DNA from: an uncultured Chloroflexia bacterium
GTDB taxonomy: Bacteria > Chloroflexota > Limnocylindria > QHBO01
Direction: 5' to 3'
Assembly (NCBI GenBank): GCA_963825525.1
Contig: CAWGTN010000002.1
Span: 320,001 to 384,000 of the forward strand
Length of the DNA stretch: 64,000 nucleotides
This document shows, piece by piece, positions 22,435 through 26,034 of the stretch. The notes beneath the pieces are model-generated. The model was not told the DNA's origin and did no database searches. It was given only the letters and a program-made list of their open reading frames with translations. Positions within the stretch are counted from its first letter, which is position 1, and every line of letters starts with the position of its first letter. The position numbers were made by a program, and so were the translations under genes.

Positions 22435-23517
22435 CTACCGGCCCTCGACGAACTGCGATGTGAACCGCGTGTCCGCGCTGAAGAAGAGCCGGATGTCGCT
22501 GATCCCGTGCCGAAGCATCGTCATGCGGTCCGGCCCCATGCCGAAGGCATAGCCCTGGTACTCGTCCGGGTCGAACCCTCCGTTGCGGAGGACCGTGGGA
22601 TGCACCATGCCGGCACCCAGGATCGTCATCCAGCCGGTGCGCTGGCAGGCCGCGCATCCCGGCCCGCCGCACACGAGACAGCCGACATCGAACGCGACGC
22701 TCGGCTCGGTGAACGGGTAGTACCCGGGGCGGAAGCGGGTCCGCACGTCGCGGCCGTAGAGCGCCGCTGCGATCTCCTCGAGCATTCCCTTGAGGTCCGC
22801 CAGGCTCGTATCTCGGTCGACGACCAGGCCCTCGACCTGGAAGAACTCGAATGCATGGCTGGCGTCGACCGCCTCATAGCGGAAGCATCGGCCCGGGGTG
22901 ATGACGCGAATGGGCGCGTCCAGCGCCTGCATGGCGCGGACCTGCACGGGGCTGGTGTGCGTGCGCAGGATGGTCCCGTCCGATGCCGGCCGTGGATCCC
23001 CCGCCTCGACCGATCCGGGCTCGGCCACGTAGAGCGTGTCCCACAGGTCGCGGGCCGGGTGCTCCGGCGGGATGTTCAGCAGCTCGAAGTTGTACTCCTC
23101 GGTCTCGATCTCGGGGCCCTCGAAGACCTCGAAGCCGAACGCATGGAAGACCTCGCGCAGGTCGCGCATCAACGTCTGCACCGGGTGCAGGTGCCCGATG
23201 CGCACCGGGCGCCCCGGTGCGCTCATGTCGATGGCCTCGCTGGCCAGGCGCCCGTCAAGCGCGCCAGCGGTCACGGCCTCCATCCGCGCCGACAGCGCGT
23301 TCTCCACGGCGCCGCGAACGTCATTGGCGAGCTTGCCGAGAACCGGCCGGTCCGCGACCGGGGCGCCTGCCAGCTGCTTGAGCAGCGCCGTCAGGCGGCC
23401 GGAGCGCCCCAGGAAGTCACGCCGCACAGCGTCGACCGCATCGGGGCTGTCCGCGTCGCTCAAGCGCCCCATGGCCTCGGATCGGAGGCCGGTGAGCGCG
23501 TCGCCCAGGTCCGTCAT
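22435..23517 (-). CDS. pheS: Phenylalanine--tRNA ligase alpha subunit
   Basis: GHLHP, HPARD, LRTHTSPVQ, F.QVEG, YPFTEPS, GAGMVHP and AFGMG motifs. Confidence 0.97.
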   Translation of the reverse strand: MTDLGDALTGLRSEAMGRLSDADSPDAVDAVRRDFLGRSGRLTALLKQLAGAPVADRPVLGKLANDVRGAVENALSARMEAVTAGALDGRLASEAIDMSAPGRPVRIGHLHPVQTLMRDLREVFHAFGFEVFEGPEIETEEYNFELLNIPPEHPARDLWDTLYVAEPGSVEAGDPRPASDGTILRTHTSPVQVRAMQALDAPIRVITPGRCFRYEAVDASHAFEFFQVEGLVVDRDTSLADLKGMLEEIAAALYGRDVRTRFRPGYYPFTEPSVAFDVGCLVCGGPGCAACQRTGWMTILGAGMVHPTVLRNGGFDPDEYQGYAFGMGPDRMTMLRHGISDIRLFFSADTRFTSQFVEGR

Positions 23518-23575
23518 TGGGACTCGATCTCCGCGTTGGCTCGTGTGTGCATCGGTGCGTGCTGCATCATCGGTG

Positions 23576-23613
23576 AAAACGAACGACCCCGCCCCGCTTC
23601 CGGGACAGGGTCG
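23576..23613 (-). terminator. Intrinsic terminator-like hairpin after rplT
   Basis: CGACCCTGTCCC-ggaa-GCGGGGCGGGGTCG followed by TTCGTTTT on the minus strand. Confidence 0.55.
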
Positions 23614-23640
23614 GTGAGACCGATCGGCTTGCGCCGACGG

Positions 23641-24000
23641 TCAGCTGGTAAAGGTCGCTTTCGCCGTCTCGACCATCGCGGCGAAGGCAGCGGGCTCGCG
23701 AATGGCCATGTCAGCCAGGATCTTGCGGTCGACCTCGACCCCCGCGGACTTCAGCCCCGCGATGAACCGGCCATACGGCACGCCGTGCTGACGGGAGGCC
23801 GCGTTGATGCGCTCGATCCACAGGCGTCGCATGTCCCGCTTCCGATTCCGGCGGTCGCGGTACGCGTAGACGAGGGCGTGGATGAGGGCTTCCCGCGCCG
23901 GCCGGATCAGCGTCGAGCGCGTCCCACGACGACCCTCGGCGCGATTGAGCAGCTTCTTGTGGCGCTTGTGGGCGGTGACGCCACGCTTGACTCTGGCCAT
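23641..24000 (-). CDS. rplT: 50S ribosomal protein L20
   Basis: MARVKRG, YAYRDRR..KR..R.LWI.RINAA and DRKILAD motifs. Confidence 0.97.
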
Positions 24001-24003
24001 CGG

Positions 24004-24213
24004 CTACTTCCCCTTGCCGGCGTACGGCATGAGGCGCTCGAGCTGGGCAGTGTGTGTGGAGGACGCCTCCGTCACGCCGTCATAGCGCCGTCGGCGCCGA
24101 GCGGACTTGATCTCGAGATGGTGGCCACGCCACGCCTTCGGGCGCACCCACTTGCCGGAACCGGTCTTCCGGTAGCGCTTGGCCGTGCCCTTGTGGGTCT
24201 TCATCTTTGGCAT
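24004..24213 (-). CDS. rpmI: 50S ribosomal protein L35
   Basis: MPKMKTHKGTAKRYRKTGSGK; lies between infC and rplT. Confidence 0.95.
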   Translation of the reverse strand: MPKMKTHKGTAKRYRKTGSGKWVRPKAWRGHHLEIKSARRRRRYDGVTEASSTHTAQLERLMPYAGKGK

Positions 24214-24220
24214 ATTCGGT

Positions 24221-24883
24221 CTACGATCCCTGCTGTGCCGGCGCCTCGCCCGCCGCCGGAGCCGCCGGCTCACGCGCTGGAGCCGGAACCTTGGCGGCGA
24301 TCGCGTCACCGATGGTGTCGCCGGCAGCCGCGGATCCGTCCGCTTCGCCGTTCTCGCTCTTCTTCTCCGGTCGCTTCTCGACCGGTGCCATCACGATGTA
24401 CATGCTTCGGCCCTCGAGCAGTGGTTGCCGCTCGATGAAGCCGTGCTCGGAGAGCTCCTCCGCCGTCCGCATCAGCAGATCGCGTCCGAGATTCGCGTGG
24501 CTGATCTCTCGCCCGCGGAATCGCACCGTGACCTTGACGCGGTCCCCCTTGTCGAGGAACTCCGCCGCTCGCCGCGCCTTCGTGCGGAGGTCGTGGACGT
24601 CGATCTTGACGGCCAGGCGAACTTCCTTGAAGGTCTGCGACTTCTGCTTCTTCTTTTGCTCGCGTTCGCGCTTCTGCAGCTCGTACTTGTACTGGCCGTA
24701 GTCGAGGATGCGACAGACCGGCGGGACCGCGGTGGGTGCGACCTCCACGAGGTCGAGACCCCTTTCCTGTGCCAGAGCGAGCGCCTCGGACGTCGCCATG
24801 ACGCCCAACTGCTGCCCTTCATCGTCAATGATCCTCACCTCGCGGATGCGGATCATCTCGTTGATGCGGAGGTCCTTGGCCAG
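24221..24883 (-). CDS. infC: Translation initiation factor IF-3, probable CTG start
   Basis: (L)AKDLRINEMIRIREVRII, LDLVEV.P...PPVCRI.DYG and FRGRE motifs; GAAGGAGAG RBS upstream of CTG 24883. Confidence 0.95.
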   Translation of the reverse strand: MAKDLRINEMIRIREVRIIDDEGQQLGVMATSEALALAQERGLDLVEVAPTAVPPVCRILDYGQYKYELQKREREQKKKQKSQTFKEVRLAVKIDVHDLRTKARRAAEFLDKGDRVKVTVRFRGREISHANLGRDLLMRTAEELSEHGFIERQPLLEGRSMYIVMAPVEKRPEKKSENGEADGSAAAGDTIGDAIAAKVPAPAREPAAPAAGEAPAQQGS

Positions 24884-24905
24884 CTTTCTTGCTCTCCTTC
24901 AACAA

Positions 24906-24994
24906 CAAGGCCACCGTACCGATCACGGACGGGTGGCCTTGCAACGTACGCGAAATGCCGACGAAGGATACACCGAAACCGAACGGATGGTCAA
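24906..24994 (-). promoter_or_regulatory. infC operon promoter and leader hairpin
   Basis: TTGACC (24994-24989)-N18-TATCCT (24970-24965); leader stem CAAGGCCAC...GTGGCCTTG just before the RBS. Confidence 0.5.
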
Positions 24995-25020
24995 CGCGAG
25001 GACCACGGCGCCGGACAGCG

Positions 25021-25048
25021 ATGAGGACCGCCTTTCGGCAGTCCTCAT
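25021..25048 (-). terminator. Strong hairpin downstream of the two micro-ORFs
   Basis: ATGAGGACTGCC-GAAA-GGCGGTCCTCAT: 12-bp stem with a GNRA loop; a U-G pair favours the minus strand. Confidence 0.6.
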
Positions 25049-25086
25049 GTTCGCTCCGCGGACTCGTGAGAGCCCAGGCCGGTTGG

Positions 25087-25188
25087 TCAGTACCAGCGAT
25101 GTCCGGCCCGGATCACCAGGTCCAGCGGAGCGGGCACTGTCGGAGCAGCCTGCAGTCGGTCGTCTGAGTTGCACACGAACGCGTACAT
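25087..25188 (-). CDS. Micro-ORF 2, putative peptide precursor MYAFVCNSDDRLQAAPTVPAPLDLVIRAGHRWY (33 aa)
   Basis: Manual translation; ATG follows the stop of micro-ORF 1 after one spacer base (TGA-G-ATG); shares the C-terminal AG-x-R-W-x motif. Confidence 0.6.
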   Translation of the reverse strand: MYAFVCNSDDRLQAAPTVPAPLDLVIRAGHRWY

Positions 25189-25189
25189 C

Positions 25190-25279
25190 TCAGTTCCACC
25201 GCATGCCGGCTGCAAGGGAGAGGGCCATCGACGCCAGGATCGTGACGGCCCAGGTGAGTCGCGTCAGTCGGTAAGCCAC
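25190..25279 (-). CDS. Micro-ORF 1, putative peptide precursor MAYRLTRLTWAVTILASMALSLAAGMRWN (29 aa)
   Basis: GAGGTG RBS 7 nt before GTG; basic n-region, hydrophobic h-region, then LAAG-MRWN; directly downstream of the riboswitch. Confidence 0.75.
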   Translation of the reverse strand: MAYRLTRLTWAVTILASMALSLAAGMRWN

Positions 25280-25312
25280 GCTTGTTCACCTCGATGAGGG
25301 GACACGATCGGA

Positions 25313-25398
25313 GCCGGCAACCGGGCGGCCTCGGTCCCGTATTGGGCGAGGTCCCTGGCTTTGCGTCCCCGCCTCGCGGCGGGTTTGCCCTGGACGGA
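25313..25398 (-). promoter_or_regulatory. c-di-GMP-I (GEMM) riboswitch
   Basis: Minus strand CAGGGCAAACCCGCC-GCGA-GGCGGGGACGCAAAGCCAGGGACCTCG...CGAGGCCGCCCGGTTGCCG matches the GEMM consensus (GGCAAACC, GNRA-capped P2, GACGCAAAGC, P3, GTTRCC). Confidence 0.9.
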
Positions 25399-25458
25399 CG
25401 ATCGACGGAAGGCGATTCTCGCCCTCAGTGCGACCGTAGGCCGGAGGTCCGGGCACGC

Positions 25459-26034
25459 CTATCGCTCATCGGTACTCGGCGGGGGGTACGTTGGTGGGAG
25501 GTTCCCCGGCGCACCGCCCCTGCGCATCAGCACGGCAATCGTCCACGCCACCCCGATGGCGATGAGCACGTCGCCGACGCTGAACACGTTGGCGAACGGG
25601 AGTGGCGGAGGAAGCGCAAAGATGTCGGTCAGGGGATGCAGTCGTGGGGCGTCCATCACGACGCTGTTCGAGTAGCCCTCGTTGACCTCCCGCCCGAGGG
25701 CGGCGAGGGCACCGGGCGAGGCGGGCATCGAGCCGCCGTTTGCCACGATGGCGGCGAGGTTGCTTGCTGCGCCGATCGCCACCAATCCCAGGCCACCGAG
25801 CGCCAGGTTGCGGAGGACCACCACCAGCACCAGTGCGGTCGACCCGACATAGATGGGCATGCCGAGGTCGCCGACGCGCTCGGCCACCGGCCCGAAGAAG
25901 AGAACCACCTGGATCATCAGCCCGATGAGCGCCAGCGGTGCCCAACGGAGACGCGCGTCGCCCAGGCGGGACAGCTCCCCGCCGCCGAGCCACCCGGCAA
26001 GCAGACCGGCCGGCAGCGCGTAGAGCATGAACAT
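25459..26034 (-). CDS. DUF5317 family membrane protein
   Basis: G...GG.L..L, N..AIVANGGSMP, L.PLTDIF and NVFSVGDVLI motifs; about 5 TM; start overlaps the stop of the upstream GGDEF/EAL gene. Confidence 0.85.
   Translation of the reverse strand: MFMLYALPAGLLAGWLGGGELSRLGDARLRWAPLALIGLMIQVVLFFGPVAERVGDLGMPIYVGSTALVLVVVLRNLALGGLGLVAIGAASNLAAIVANGGSMPASPGALAALGREVNEGYSNSVVMDAPRLHPLTDIFALPPPLPFANVFSVGDVLIAIGVAWTIAVLMRRGGAPGNLPPTYPPPSTDER

What the first reader, a model, noticed from the sequence alone, without database searches (positions are those of the whole stretch)
25087..25279. Two tandem unannotated micro-ORFs with a shared C-terminal AG-x-R-W-x motif
ORF1 (GTG 25279, GAGGTG RBS) is MAYRLTRLTWAVTILASMALSLAAGMRWN, essentially a signal peptide plus 5 residues. 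ORF2 starts one base after its stop and is MYAFVCNSDDRLQAAPTVPAPLDLVIRAGHRWY. Both place A-G-x-R-W-x directly before the stop, which is unlikely by chance. ORF2 lacks a clear h-region, so it could be a second signal, an antagonist or a competitor of the processing enzyme (inference). Both are below the ORF-track length cutoff.
Basis: partly seen in the sequence, partly recalled or inferred. Interest (0 to 1): 0.85.

Follow-up and report, generated by a model that had tools for sequence, protein, structure and literature searches.

The report
Riboswitch-controlled tandem micro-protein genes
Two tiny back-to-back genes (29 and 33 codons) sit directly behind an RNA sensor for the bacterial signal c-di-GMP; they belong to a conserved, unnamed family of mini-proteins that travels with a c-di-GMP enzyme and an uncharacterised membrane protein in soil Chloroflexota.

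Summary
ORF1 (25279..25190, 29 aa) and ORF2 (25188..25087, 33 aa) exist as described. They are the only 2 of 1256 frames in the window that end in AG-x-R-W-x.

- A c-di-GMP-I riboswitch (25398..25312) lies 33 nt upstream of ORF1.
- A strong terminator-like hairpin follows ORF2.

The pair is intact in 8 of 8 same-genus genomes that carry the locus. Variation in the tail is synonymous-only.

Across Limnocylindria-type MAGs, 60 of 84 sites with this aptamer subtype carry one or two such micro-ORFs. In most relatives ORF2 is itself a transmembrane peptide, a paralogue of ORF1.

The unit is linked to a GAF-GGDEF-EAL gene and a DUF5317 gene, not to infC.

Best reading: translationally coupled micro-proteins under c-di-GMP control that act with the DUF5317/GGDEF-EAL membrane module. 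Three things remain unknown: the switch polarity, the partner and the biochemical role.

The closest known analogue is the C. difficile CD1980.2 family. It is analogous, not shown to be homologous.

The parts
26034..28748 (-). 904-aa membrane protein with GAF, GGDEF and EAL domains (makes and/or degrades c-di-GMP). Its stop overlaps the next gene's ATG by one base.
   Evidence: ORF. Pfam: EAL 226.9 bits, GGDEF 153.8 bits, GAF_3 43.3 bits. A homologue lies in 52 of 64 cassette loci.
25459..26034 (-). 191-aa multi-pass membrane protein of family DUF5317, function unknown
   Evidence: Pfam PF17248, 95 bits against a cut-off of 25. AF2 model pLDDT 88.7. A homologue lies in 52 of 64 cassette loci. 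Close orthologues occur in 9 of 63 genus genomes, exactly those with a riboswitch plus micro-ORF.
25433..25438 (-). TACGGT, a -10-like hexamer 46 nt before the aptamer core. It may be the unit's own promoter (inferred).
   Evidence: TA[CG][CG][GT]T lies at -43..-55 in 42 of 64 related sites. Shuffles give a mean of 2.4 and a maximum of 7. No experimental transcription start is known.
25408..25426 (-). Small leader hairpin (GAGGGCGA-GAA-TCGCCTTC) between the -10-like element and the aptamer
   Evidence: Sequence. It forms in the folds. In related leaders the median energy is -13.6 against -8.75 kcal/mol for shuffles, and 12% of shuffles reach the observed median. The stem sequence differs among the 8 genus loci while pairing is kept (by eye).
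25312..25398 (-). c-di-GMP-I (GEMM-I) riboswitch aptamer
   Evidence: RF03167: 60.5 bits (gathering 59), E 4.1e-13. RF01051: 55.3 bits (gathering 35). It is the only such hit in the 2.58-Mb genome.
25287..25292 (-). GAGGTG Shine-Dalgarno of ORF1. Predicted to pair with TCACC in ORF1 codons 8-9.
   Evidence: GAGGTGAAC is found in 8 of 8 genus loci, 4-5 nt before the GTG. Hairpin of -13.3 kcal/mol.
25190..25279 (-). Micro-ORF1: 29 aa, a single hydrophobic helix ending AGMRWN
   Evidence: Aligned with 37 relatives (A1); consensus MKANLARFTWALALLASMALTLGAGMRWx.
25087..25188 (-). Micro-ORF2: 33 aa. The N-half is variable; the tail PLDLVIRAGHRWY is conserved. It starts 1 nt after the ORF1 stop.
   Evidence: An ORF2 start lies -1..+5 nt from the ORF1 stop in 39 of 43 tandem sites.
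25021..25048 (-). GC-rich hairpin ATGAGGACTGCC-GAAA-GGCGGTCCTCAT, terminator-like but without a T-run
   Evidence: -22.6 kcal/mol. All 59 related cassettes with 160 nt of DNA past the last stop have such a hairpin: median -28.8 against -22.4 for control windows, and 6% of controls reach the observed median. The T-tract scan found no terminator-like site.
24965..24994 (-). Separate sigma-70-like promoter of infC (TTGACC-18-TATCCT). It marks the end of the unit.
   Evidence: This piece alone (about query positions 420-471) matches in many genus genomes that lack the cassette.

Best explanation
The locus is a compact unit in this order:
1. a -10-like element and a leader hairpin;
2. a c-di-GMP-I riboswitch;
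3. micro-ORF1;
4. micro-ORF2;
5. a terminator-like hairpin.

Shown:
- Both micro-ORFs are conserved protein-coding genes.
- ORF2 begins within a few bases of the ORF1 stop, which points to coupled translation (inference from spacing).
- The riboswitch matches the c-di-GMP-I family.
- The unit is genetically tied to a DUF5317 membrane protein and a membrane GAF-GGDEF-EAL enzyme, not to infC.

Inferred:
- c-di-GMP binding to the aptamer changes how much of the two peptides is made. The likely level is translation, since the Shine-Dalgarno and GUG lie in conserved hairpins and no terminator separates aptamer and ORF1.
- ORF1, and the transmembrane-type ORF2 of relatives, inserts as a single helix with the basic N-end inside. 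This puts the invariant A-G-x-R-W at the outer membrane surface.
- The two tails act together on the DUF5317/GGDEF-EAL module as accessory or feedback subunits.

Not resolved: whether the switch is ON or OFF, which protein is the direct partner, and the biochemical effect.
For: Riboswitch:
- RF03167 at 60.5 bits and RF01051 at 55.3 bits, 33 nt upstream of ORF1.

Coding:
- 8 of 8 genus loci are intact.
- Synonymous-only columns: 10 in ORF1 against 2, 1 (shifted sense frames) and 1, 5, 2 (antisense frames). In the ORF2 tail, 6 against 1, 1.
- In 42 main-family ORF1 sequences, codons 11-27 use 3-5 synonymous codons each.
- Ala and Gly of both tails use all four codons.

Family:
- 84 sites found through the aptamer alone: 43 with two tail-ORFs, 17 with one, 24 with none.
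- A profile of ORF1 finds 146 representatives at E<=1e-3 among 1.84 billion proteins.

Coupling:
- An ORF2 start lies -1..+5 nt from the ORF1 stop in 39 of 43 tandem sites.

The tails act together:
- The residue three before W is G/G in 39, W/W in 3 and D/D in 1 of 43 tandem sites. It is never mixed.

Stand-alone unit:
- All 59 cassettes scored end in a strong hairpin.
- IF3 is adjacent in only 7 of 64 loci.

Linkage:
- GGDEF-EAL in 52 of 64 loci and DUF5317 in 52 of 64.
- Both lie upstream on the same strand in 40 of 60 sites, with other orders in a few.
- Close DUF5317 orthologues occur in 9 of 63 genus genomes, which are the 8 cassette genomes plus G083 (riboswitch plus one micro-ORF).
- Of 24 further loci chosen only by DUF5317 similarity, 19 carry a tail micro-ORF just downstream: 14 with a riboswitch and 5 without.
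- P0161 is a natural DUF5317-GAF-GGDEF-EAL fusion with 11 member sequences.

Precedent:
- Small membrane proteins behind class I c-di-GMP riboswitches in C. difficile (PMC13724677; abstract and sections 7, 9 and 14 read).
Against: - No expression data. Metatranscriptome contigs laid on the locus covered only the aptamer core 25347..25391 and came from other organisms.
- Two folding set-ups over 54 leaders gave no consistent ON or OFF direction. In the first, the SD was more open when bound in 6 and when unbound in 12 of 54. In the second, the SD pairs with the linker in both states in 25 of 54.
- The window's ORF2 has no membrane segment (hydrophobicity 1.15), and relatives have ORF2s of only 9-17 aa that keep just the tail. 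A cytoplasmic tail does not fit an outer-face role, so the tail may do something independent of membrane position.
- 5 of 24 DUF5317-selected loci have the peptide gene but no riboswitch, so c-di-GMP control is not obligatory.
- 24 of 84 aptamer sites lack the peptides. Four of these have too little downstream DNA, and most of the rest carry larger secreted proteins.
- The topology rests only on the positive-inside rule.
- The aptamer scores 1.5 bits above the RF03167 cut-off, yet carries A where that model's consensus has G.
Confidence: 0.6

Rival explanations
1. The peptides are precursors of processed or exported peptide signals (pheromone-, bacteriocin- or RiPP-like). DUF5317 would be the processing, export or immunity protein.
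For: - ORF1 resembles a signal peptide followed by 3-5 residues, with small residues (G/S-A-G) just before M-R-W.
- ORF2 can shrink to 9-17 aa while keeping [AS]-G-[HRQ]-R-W.
- There is tight linkage to a multi-pass membrane protein with invariant Asp and Asn residues.
- A DUF5317 paralogue is fused to an MFS transporter (11 further such proteins).
Against: - DUF5317 shows no relation to signal peptidase II: Pfam 12.6 bits against 25, hhalign probability 1%.
- It has no PDB sequence match and no clear fold match: Foldseek best E 2.7, VIA-align best Z 6.2.
- ORF2 has E, R or D three residues before the putative cut. From recalled knowledge of the -3/-1 rule, that is a poor signal peptidase I site.
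- There is no Cys for a lipobox.
- In the window no radical-SAM, cyclase or ABC-transporter gene lies between pheST/infC and the GGDEF-EAL gene. Only DUF5317 and GGDEF-EAL were scanned against Pfam.
- The soluble ORF2 has no export signal.
Confidence: 0.15
2. The ORFs are cis-acting regulatory mini-ORFs. The nascent A-G-x-R-W tail would act on the ribosome at termination, by stalling or reinitiation control, and so set the mRNA's fate. The free peptides would have no job.
For: - In this lineage only the last ~12 residues of ORF2 are conserved, and its N-half varies in sequence and length.
- ORF2 can be as short as 9 aa.
- Both tails sit right before stops, and ORF2 restarts at the ORF1 stop.
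- The unit lies between a riboswitch and a hairpin.
Against: - The distance from W to the stop is not fixed. ORF1: 0 residues in 7, 1 in 26, 2 in 9 and 3-7 in 5 of 47. ORF2: 0 in 10, 1 in 43 and 4-6 in 3 of 56. Known arrest peptides need exact spacing (recalled).
- The whole ORF1 helix is under protein-level selection.
- No constant downstream gene exists to regulate.
- The hairpin starts 39 nt after the ORF2 stop in the window, beyond a terminating ribosome's footprint (footprint size recalled).
- Half of the ORF2-type peptides are full membrane helices.
Confidence: 0.12
3. ORF1 is a membrane-damaging type-I-toxin-like or holin-like peptide. c-di-GMP would gate its synthesis, and ORF2 would modulate it.
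For: Size (28-31 aa), a single hydrophobic helix, a basic N-end, and a start codon and SD buried in conserved hairpins. These resemble type I toxin mRNAs (resemblance recalled, not tested).
Against: - No antisense RNA or known toxin family was detected. Rfam at E<=1 gives only the riboswitch in 23500..26500, and Pfam and NCBIfam give nothing.
- The conserved linkage to DUF5317/GGDEF-EAL and the co-varying tails point to a specific partner rather than bulk membrane damage.
Confidence: 0.08
4. The stretch is not coding. It would be part of the riboswitch expression platform or another RNA, or the real gene would be the 188-aa ORF on the opposite strand (24708..25274).
For: - The first 26 nt of main-family ORF1 are nearly invariant even at synonymous sites (GCG 36 of 37, CTG 41 of 42, CGC 37 of 40). 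They fold into a -10.3 kcal/mol hairpin over the GUG, so an RNA-level constraint does overlap the ORF.
- An open 188-aa frame exists on the + strand.
Against: - Beyond codon 9, variation is mainly synonymous.
- Frames and tails are kept through length changes in multiples of three.
- Antisense frames carry stops in 5 of 8 genus loci or more, and show 1, 5 and 2 synonymous-only columns against 10 in the sense frame.
- The 188-aa ORF has no Pfam hit, and its infC-side half is absent from G009, G003 and G016.
Confidence: 0.03

Closest known systems
CD1980.2 family of Clostridioides difficile (PMC13724677, Nat Commun 2026; abstract and sections 7, 9 and 14 read)
   Same: Both are small, previously unannotated or 'hypothetical' membrane-associated proteins encoded directly behind class I c-di-GMP riboswitches. 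In both, small proteins serve as the output of c-di-GMP sensing by RNA.
   Different: The C. difficile proteins:
- are 58 aa, modelled as four helices with a C-terminal hydrophobic helix;
- occur as dispersed single genes in 5-7 copies;
- are switched OFF by c-di-GMP through premature transcription termination, and promote sporulation;
- have no non-C. difficile homologues, according to the authors.

Here:
- the peptides are 29 and 33 aa (9-38 in relatives);
- two paralogues lie in tandem with coupled starts;
- they share an invariant C-terminal A-G-x-R-W;
- no terminator lies between aptamer and ORF;
- they are linked to DUF5317 and a GGDEF-EAL enzyme, in Chloroflexota.

c-di-GMP-I riboswitch (Rfam RF01051) and its GGC variant (RF03167)
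   Same: The aptamer passes the curated cut-off of both models.
   Different: It scores higher with the variant model. At the one consensus position where the variant model shows G (GACGCGAAG), this RNA has A (GACGCAAAG), as in the canonical class. That this is the ligand-intercalating A47 of the Vc2 structure, and that 'GGC' names that change, is recalled and not taken from a call. No paper describing the variant could be read.
Small membrane-protein regulators of larger membrane proteins (MgrB-PhoQ, AcrZ-AcrB, KdpF, MgtS; recalled from the literature, not looked up here)
   Same: They are single-helix peptides of 30-50 aa whose synthesis is set by the pathway they act on. This is the mode of action proposed here.
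   Different: No sequence relation was tested. No partner contact has been shown here. Those examples are controlled by protein regulators or sRNAs, not by a riboswitch, and they are not tandem paralogues with a shared C-terminal motif.
Two-peptide and leaderless bacteriocins, and signal-peptide-derived pheromones of Enterococcus (recalled)
   Same: They involve tandem genes for two 30-40-aa peptides with small-residue motifs, or bioactive peptides that arise from signal-peptide-like sequences, with a nearby multi-pass membrane protein.
   Different: There is no double-glycine leader and no ABC transporter in the window. The peptides are uniformly hydrophobic rather than amphipathic. DUF5317 has no detectable protease or immunity-family relation.

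Membership tests
c-di-GMP-I riboswitch (RF01051) | Covariance-model score at or above the curated gathering score | tested here: met
   55.3 bits against 35, E 4.1e-10
c-di-GMP-I riboswitch (RF01051) | Binds c-di-GMP | not testable with these tools
   Needs in-line probing or ITC on the RNA 25398..25312
c-di-GMP-I-GGC variant (RF03167) | Score at or above the gathering score | tested here: met
   60.5 bits against 59, a margin of 1.5 bits
c-di-GMP-I-GGC variant (RF03167) | G in place of the canonical A in the GACGC-A-AAGCC segment. That this is the feature that defines the variant is recalled, not taken from a call. | tested here: not met
   The alignment shows consensus GGGACGCGAAgCc against GGGACGCAAAGCC in the window
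CD1980.2 small-protein family (C. difficile) | About 58 aa, with N-terminal helices plus a C-terminal hydrophobic helix (PMC13724677, sections 7 and 9) | tested here: not met
   ORF1 is 29 aa with one hydrophobic segment. ORF2 is 33 aa with none above the threshold.
CD1980.2 small-protein family (C. difficile) | Sequence similarity to CD1980.2 or CD2309 | not tested
The paper states that there are no non-C. difficile homologues.
Lipoprotein signal peptide (lipobox) | Cys at +1 after L-[AS]-[GA] | tested here: not met
   There is no Cys after the A-G in any of 38 ORF1 or 37 ORF2 sequences aligned
Sec signal peptide cleaved by signal peptidase I | n-, h- and c-regions, with small residues at -3 and -1 and a mature protein after the cut | tested here: inconclusive
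   ORF1 has a basic n-region, a hydrophobic core and G/S-A-G, but only 3-5 residues follow. ORF2 has E/R/D at -3. No signal-peptide predictor was available.
Ribosome arrest peptides acting at termination (TnaC/SpeFL-like; features recalled) | Fixed spacing between the critical residues and the stop codon | tested here: not met
   0 to 7 residues follow W in ORF1 (47 sequences) and 0 to 6 in ORF2 (56 sequences)
DUF5317 (PF17248), for the neighbouring 191-aa gene | Pfam score at or above the gathering score | tested here: met
   95 bits against 25, covering profile positions 3-150 of 151
Signal peptidase II (Peptidase_A8), for the neighbouring 191-aa gene | Pfam gathering score, or profile-profile similarity to LspA | tested here: not met
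   12.6 bits against 25. hhalign of 36 DUF5317 against 18 LspA sequences gives probability 1%. A genuine LspA lies elsewhere in the genome. The fold searches did not list LspA, which is inconclusive.

The most novel reading that the evidence does not exclude
DUF5317 would be a new kind of intramembrane processing or export protein. The two micro-ORFs would be its substrates: signal-peptide-like precursors from which short R-W-containing peptides are released. c-di-GMP, read by the riboswitch, would then gate production of a peptide signal, with the adjacent or fused GGDEF-EAL enzyme closing the loop.

A milder version is a c-di-GMP homeostat. There the two co-varying tails together form the ligand of the DUF5317 outer loop and tune the enzyme. 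I put that at about 0.3.
Probability: 0.1. Interest if true: 0.9.

Novelty: new variant of a known kind. Interest (0 to 1): 0.62.

Why it matters
c-di-GMP riboswitches are common, yet what many of them control is unknown. Until a 2026 C. difficile study, small proteins were not recognised as their outputs.

This locus shows a second, unrelated micro-protein family behind the same riboswitch class, in an uncultured soil and freshwater lineage.

It also gives DUF5317 its first functional context. No paper in the searched library mentions that family. The context is a conserved neighbourhood, and in one case a fusion, with a c-di-GMP enzyme and with these peptides.

The invariant, co-varying A-G-x-R-W tails offer a sharp handle for mutagenesis.

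The case also shows how 28-33-codon genes escape annotation:
- where called at all, members are named 'hypothetical protein' (11 of 17 listed) or carry no name (6 of 17);
- no Pfam or NCBIfam model matches them.

Tried and rejected
**infC leader peptide.** Rejected. IF3 is adjacent in only 7 of 64 cassette loci. In G009, G003 and G016 other DNA follows. infC has its own promoter.

**Expression evidence.** One search for RNA runs returned three metatranscriptomes holding 0.04-0.06 of the sampled words. Laid at 85% likeness, their contigs covered only about 25347..25391, the aptamer core, and continued into unlike sequence. They say nothing about the ORFs.

**Switch polarity.** Two folding set-ups on 54 leaders gave no consistent direction: P1 forced against P1 5' strand blocked, and full leader MFE against forced P1.

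**DUF5317 as a relative of signal peptidase II.**
- Weak Pfam hit, E 0.16.
- hhalign probability 1%.
- No PDB sequence match at E<=10.
- Foldseek best E 2.7.
- VIA-align over 48,161 chains: best Z 6.2, generic helical pairs.

**Binding of ORF1 to DUF5317.** One complex-prediction job used the L090 pair with alignments A5 and A1. Scores were 0.25 and 0.26 against a mark of 0.32, and the controls were not run. This is no verdict either way.

**Protein database look-ups.**
- A 33-aa query was too short.
- A natural 43-aa ORF2 form from L068 found no candidate among proteins of 23-76 aa.
- ESM Atlas listed unnamed 29-30-aa clusters of 58, 56 and 175 members at scores 0.90-0.92. This is a lead only.

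**Apparent fusions.** P0136 (EAL + DUF5317 + ORF1-like) and P0175 look like frameshifted read-throughs of neighbouring genes and were not used.

**False positives.** P0065 and P0135, in the profile search, are repeat proteins that are not from this family.

**Literature.**
- 'DUF5317': 0 papers.
- 'Limnocylindria' with 'c-di-GMP': 0 papers.
- 'c-di-GMP-I-GGC': 3 papers, listings only.
- The 2017 paper that I recall as defining the variant was not held.
- Supplements are closed. The alignment figures and supplements of PMC13724677 could bear on whether the families are related.

Full report
**Observation**

On the minus strand ORF1 runs 25279..25190 (GTG start, 29 aa). ORF2 runs 25188..25087 (ATG one base after the ORF1 stop, 33 aa). 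They end AGMRWN and AGHRWY, and GAGGTG lies at 25292..25287. Of 1256 stop-to-stop frames of 20 or more codons in the window, only these two end in AG.RW. The pentapeptide occurs 8 times in 127,996 six-frame residues. The description is correct and is not a chance pattern.

**What surrounds it**

A scan of 23500..26500 against Rfam at E<=1 gave one match: a c-di-GMP-I-type aptamer at 25398..25312 on the same strand. It scores 60.5 bits for RF03167 (cut-off 59) and 55.3 bits for RF01051 (cut-off 35). It is the only such element in the 2.58-Mb genome.

At the position where the RF03167 consensus has G (GACGCGAAG), this RNA has the canonical A. So I read it as an ordinary c-di-GMP sensor. The structural meaning of that position is recalled, not tested.

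Other features on the minus strand:
- Upstream lie a 904-aa GAF-GGDEF-EAL protein and a 191-aa DUF5317 protein. The stop of the first and the start of the second overlap by one base.
- Downstream of ORF2 is a -22.6 kcal/mol GC hairpin at 25048..25021.
- Then comes a sigma-70-like promoter at 24994..24965, followed by infC, rpmI and rplT.
- Titles of related contigs place the organism in the Chloroflexota, Candidatus Limnocylindria/Limnocylindrales.

**Are the ORFs genes?**

The DNA 24950..25420 was searched in 63 genomes of the genus. Eight carry the riboswitch and both ORFs: G000, G062, G077, G017, G009, G003, G016 and G014. Many others match only the infC promoter.

In all 8:
- ORF1 is 29 aa and ORF2 is 31-33 aa.
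- The gap between them is 1-2 nt.

| Region and reading frame | Invariant / synonymous-only / non-synonymous codon columns |
|---|---|
| ORF1, sense frame | 9 / 10 / 11 |
| ORF1, shifted sense frames | 8/2/19 and 9/1/19 |
| ORF1, antisense frames | 8/1/20, 9/5/15 and 8/2/19 |
| ORF2 last 16 codons, sense frame | 4 / 6 / 6 |
| ORF2 last 16 codons, shifted frames | 3/1/11 in both |

The 188-aa ORF on the opposite strand is interrupted in most relatives and has no Pfam hit.

**A wider family**

The 5' half of the aptamer was used as an exact pattern over one genome per species. It returned 80 loci with 84 sites.
- 43 sites are followed by two short ORFs ending [AGSDE]-[GWDS]-x-[RK]-W plus 0-8 residues.
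- 17 sites are followed by one such ORF.
- 24 sites have none. Four of these lack downstream DNA. Most of the rest, largely Solirubrobacteraceae, carry larger secreted proteins.

The ORF1 consensus is MKANLARFTWALALLASMALTLGAGMRWx (38 sequences). The window's ORF1 is a clear member of the same length.

ORF2-type peptides split into two groups:
- Transmembrane-like: ...QAFRVLLALxALxSSAxVLEAG[HRQ]RWx.
- Non-hydrophobic forms that keep only the tail.
- By a hydrophobicity threshold the split is 28 against 27 (55 of the 56 ORF2-type peptides could be scored).
- Some ORF2s are only 9-17 aa, for example MAPDAGRRW.

Class-specific residues hold throughout. The residue two before W is M/I/L/V in ORF1 and H/R/Q in ORF2. 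The residue five before W is G in ORF1 and E in ORF2. Ala and Gly of both tails use all four codons.

Further points:
- An in-frame ORF2 start lies -1..+5 nt from the ORF1 stop in 39 of 43 tandem sites.
- The residue three before W is always matched between the two ORFs: G/G in 39, W/W in 3 and D/D in 1. This is at least two independent paired changes. L073 and L099 come from one MAG.

**Two layers of constraint**

In 42 main-family ORF1 sequences, codons 2-8 show almost no synonymous change (GCG 36 of 37, CTG 41 of 42, CGC 37 of 40). Codons 11-27 use 3-5 codons each. The invariant 26 nt fold into a -10.3 kcal/mol hairpin that buries the GUG.

In the window's lineage, the SD GGUGA pairs with UCACC of codons 8-9 (-13.3 kcal/mol). 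So the 5' end of ORF1 is also part of the RNA switch.

Two folding set-ups over 54 leaders did not give a consistent polarity. No T-tract terminator lies between aptamer and ORF1. Control at the level of translation is therefore an inference.

**Boundaries of the unit**

- A -10-like TA[CG][CG][GT]T sits 43-55 nt before the aptamer core in 42 of 64 sites (shuffles: mean 2.4).
- Every one of the 59 cassettes with enough downstream DNA has a strong hairpin after the last stop. The median is -28.8 against -22.4 kcal/mol in control windows, and 6% of controls reach it.

**Linkage**

- tblastn with the window's neighbours found the GGDEF-EAL homologue in 52 of 64 cassette loci, DUF5317 in 52 of 64 and IF3 in 7 of 64.
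- Both lie upstream on the same strand in 40 of 60 sites. A few loci show other orders or a divergent orientation. At least 5 of the remainder have under 800 nt of upstream DNA.
- From the DUF5317 side, close orthologues (44-77% identity) occur in 9 of 63 genus genomes. These are the 8 cassette genomes plus G083, which has a riboswitch followed by a single micro-ORF ending ALGAERKW.
- The weaker genus hits (29-36% identity, inside open frames of about 350-725 aa) are read as a DUF5317-MFS fusion paralogue; only the G000 copy was checked.
- In a draw of 301 genomes of the class, 73 have an orthologue at E<=1e-25.
- Of 24 new loci chosen only by that similarity, 14 have the riboswitch plus tail micro-ORFs. 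A further 5 have an ORF2-type membrane micro-ORF without a riboswitch, and 5 have neither.
- P0161 (1053 aa, 11 member sequences, NCBI name 'EAL domain-containing protein') is a natural DUF5317-GAF-GGDEF-EAL fusion.

The peptide-DUF5317 link is thus stronger than the peptide-riboswitch link.

**What DUF5317 is**

The AF2 model is confident (pLDDT 88.7, pTM 0.81). It matched nothing convincingly:
- no PDB sequence hit;
- Foldseek best E 2.7;
- VIA-align best Z 6.2.

A weak Pfam hint to signal peptidase II was not borne out by hhalign (probability 1%).

By the positive-inside rule (my reading of the sequence), its most conserved stretch faces outward. This stretch runs about residues 99-155 and contains ANGGYMP, YSNS, PLTD and FANVFSVGD. 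The C-terminal tail of an N-in ORF1 would face the same way.

**Interpretation**

I commit to the following reading, marking what is shown and what is inferred.
- Shown: two real micro-protein genes.
- Inferred: c-di-GMP gates their synthesis, and translation of the two is coupled.
- Inferred: they act with the DUF5317/GGDEF-EAL membrane module.
- The co-varying tails suggest that the two peptides act together on a common site.
- The conserved tail on non-membrane and very short ORF2 forms remains unexplained by this picture. It keeps the processing/signal rival and the cis-regulatory rival alive.

**Comparison with the known**

The nearest precedent is the C. difficile CD1980.2 family. These are 58-aa membrane-associated proteins behind class I c-di-GMP riboswitches. 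They are repressed by c-di-GMP through termination, and they promote sporulation (PMC13724677; abstract and sections 7, 9 and 14 read). The present family shares the logic. It does not share the size, architecture, gene arrangement or context.

Status of the family in databases:
- No Pfam or NCBIfam model matches the micro-ORFs.
- A profile of ORF1 finds 146 representatives at E<=1e-3 (32 at E<=1e-10) among 1.84 billion proteins. Many sit at the end of over-long gene calls.
- The 17 members listed for 10 clusters are called 'hypothetical protein' (11) or carry no name (6).

**Unpublished genomes**

G006, G034 and G064 are unpublished genomes. They enter only the tallies. G006's locus L013 also appears in the passing note on WDG-motif proteins. 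No main claim rests on them.

Noticed in passing
L004, L007, L008, L009, L013, L021, L025 (riboswitch loci of relatives): Other copies of the same riboswitch class in related genomes precede proteins that begin M-x-[FY]-W-[DN]-G-x-x-W-[VIL], followed by a membrane helix (147 to about 500 aa). The G-x-R-W part resembles the micro-ORF tail. L013 is from the unpublished genome G006.
   Followed up: no
window 24856..24221 (-), with upstream sequence to about 24880: The infC frame is open from a TGA just after the GAAGGAG at about 24890. The first ATG gives MIRIREV..., but the conserved residues AKDLRINE lie upstream of it. This suggests a non-ATG/GTG/TTG start, as is known for infC in other bacteria (recalled).
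   Followed up: no
G000:C2:1392989-1394908 (L215:290-2209): A second DUF5317 domain in the same genome forms the N-terminal part of a 640-aa MFS transporter (DUF5317 77.7 bits, MFS_1 85.9 bits, MFS_3 78.6 bits). Weaker DUF5317 matches inside open frames of about 350-725 aa occur in many genomes of the genus; only this G000 copy was checked.
   Followed up: partly
P0161 (1053 aa, Candidatus Limnocylindrales MAG): A natural fusion of DUF5317 to the membrane-GAF-GGDEF-EAL protein. This argues that the two neighbouring gene products work as one unit.
   Followed up: partly
L247, L248, L249, L253, L263 (downstream of DUF5317): ORF2-type membrane micro-ORFs (for example ...FRVLLALTTLASAALVLEAGKRWF) follow DUF5317 without any riboswitch at the Rfam gathering threshold. 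The peptide gene therefore predates riboswitch control or can dispense with it.
   Followed up: partly
L066, L130, L067, L120, L078, L095: In some lineages the first ORF keeps the invariant 5' codons (M-[RD]-A-N-L-A-R) but has lost the membrane helix and the tail, or is fused in frame to the ORF2-type peptide. Only the second peptide is then intact.
   Followed up: no
L117, L132, L142, L081 and G056:C9 (L011/L026): Two riboswitch units lie 0.5-1.2 kb apart on one contig, so the cassette is locally duplicated in some genomes.
   Followed up: no
window 25470..25520 region and related loci: The 3' end of the DUF5317 gene and the spacer before the -10-like element carry conserved nucleotide blocks (CTCCCCC, GGTACC, CAT[TAG]GGC), even though the protein C-termini differ. 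This could be a regulatory site overlapping the gene end.
   Followed up: no
window 26034..28748 (-): By eye, the 904-aa protein keeps RxxD five residues before an intact GGDEF (REDDLASRLGGDEF), and keeps EAL and DDFGTGYASL motifs. Both catalytic domains and the inhibitory site may therefore be functional.
   Followed up: no
L075, L081, L084, L088, L091, L098, L101, L128 (Solirubrobacteraceae MAGs): The same aptamer subtype precedes 190-320-aa proteins with N-terminal signal-like sequences instead of micro-ORFs. They were not examined further.
   Followed up: no
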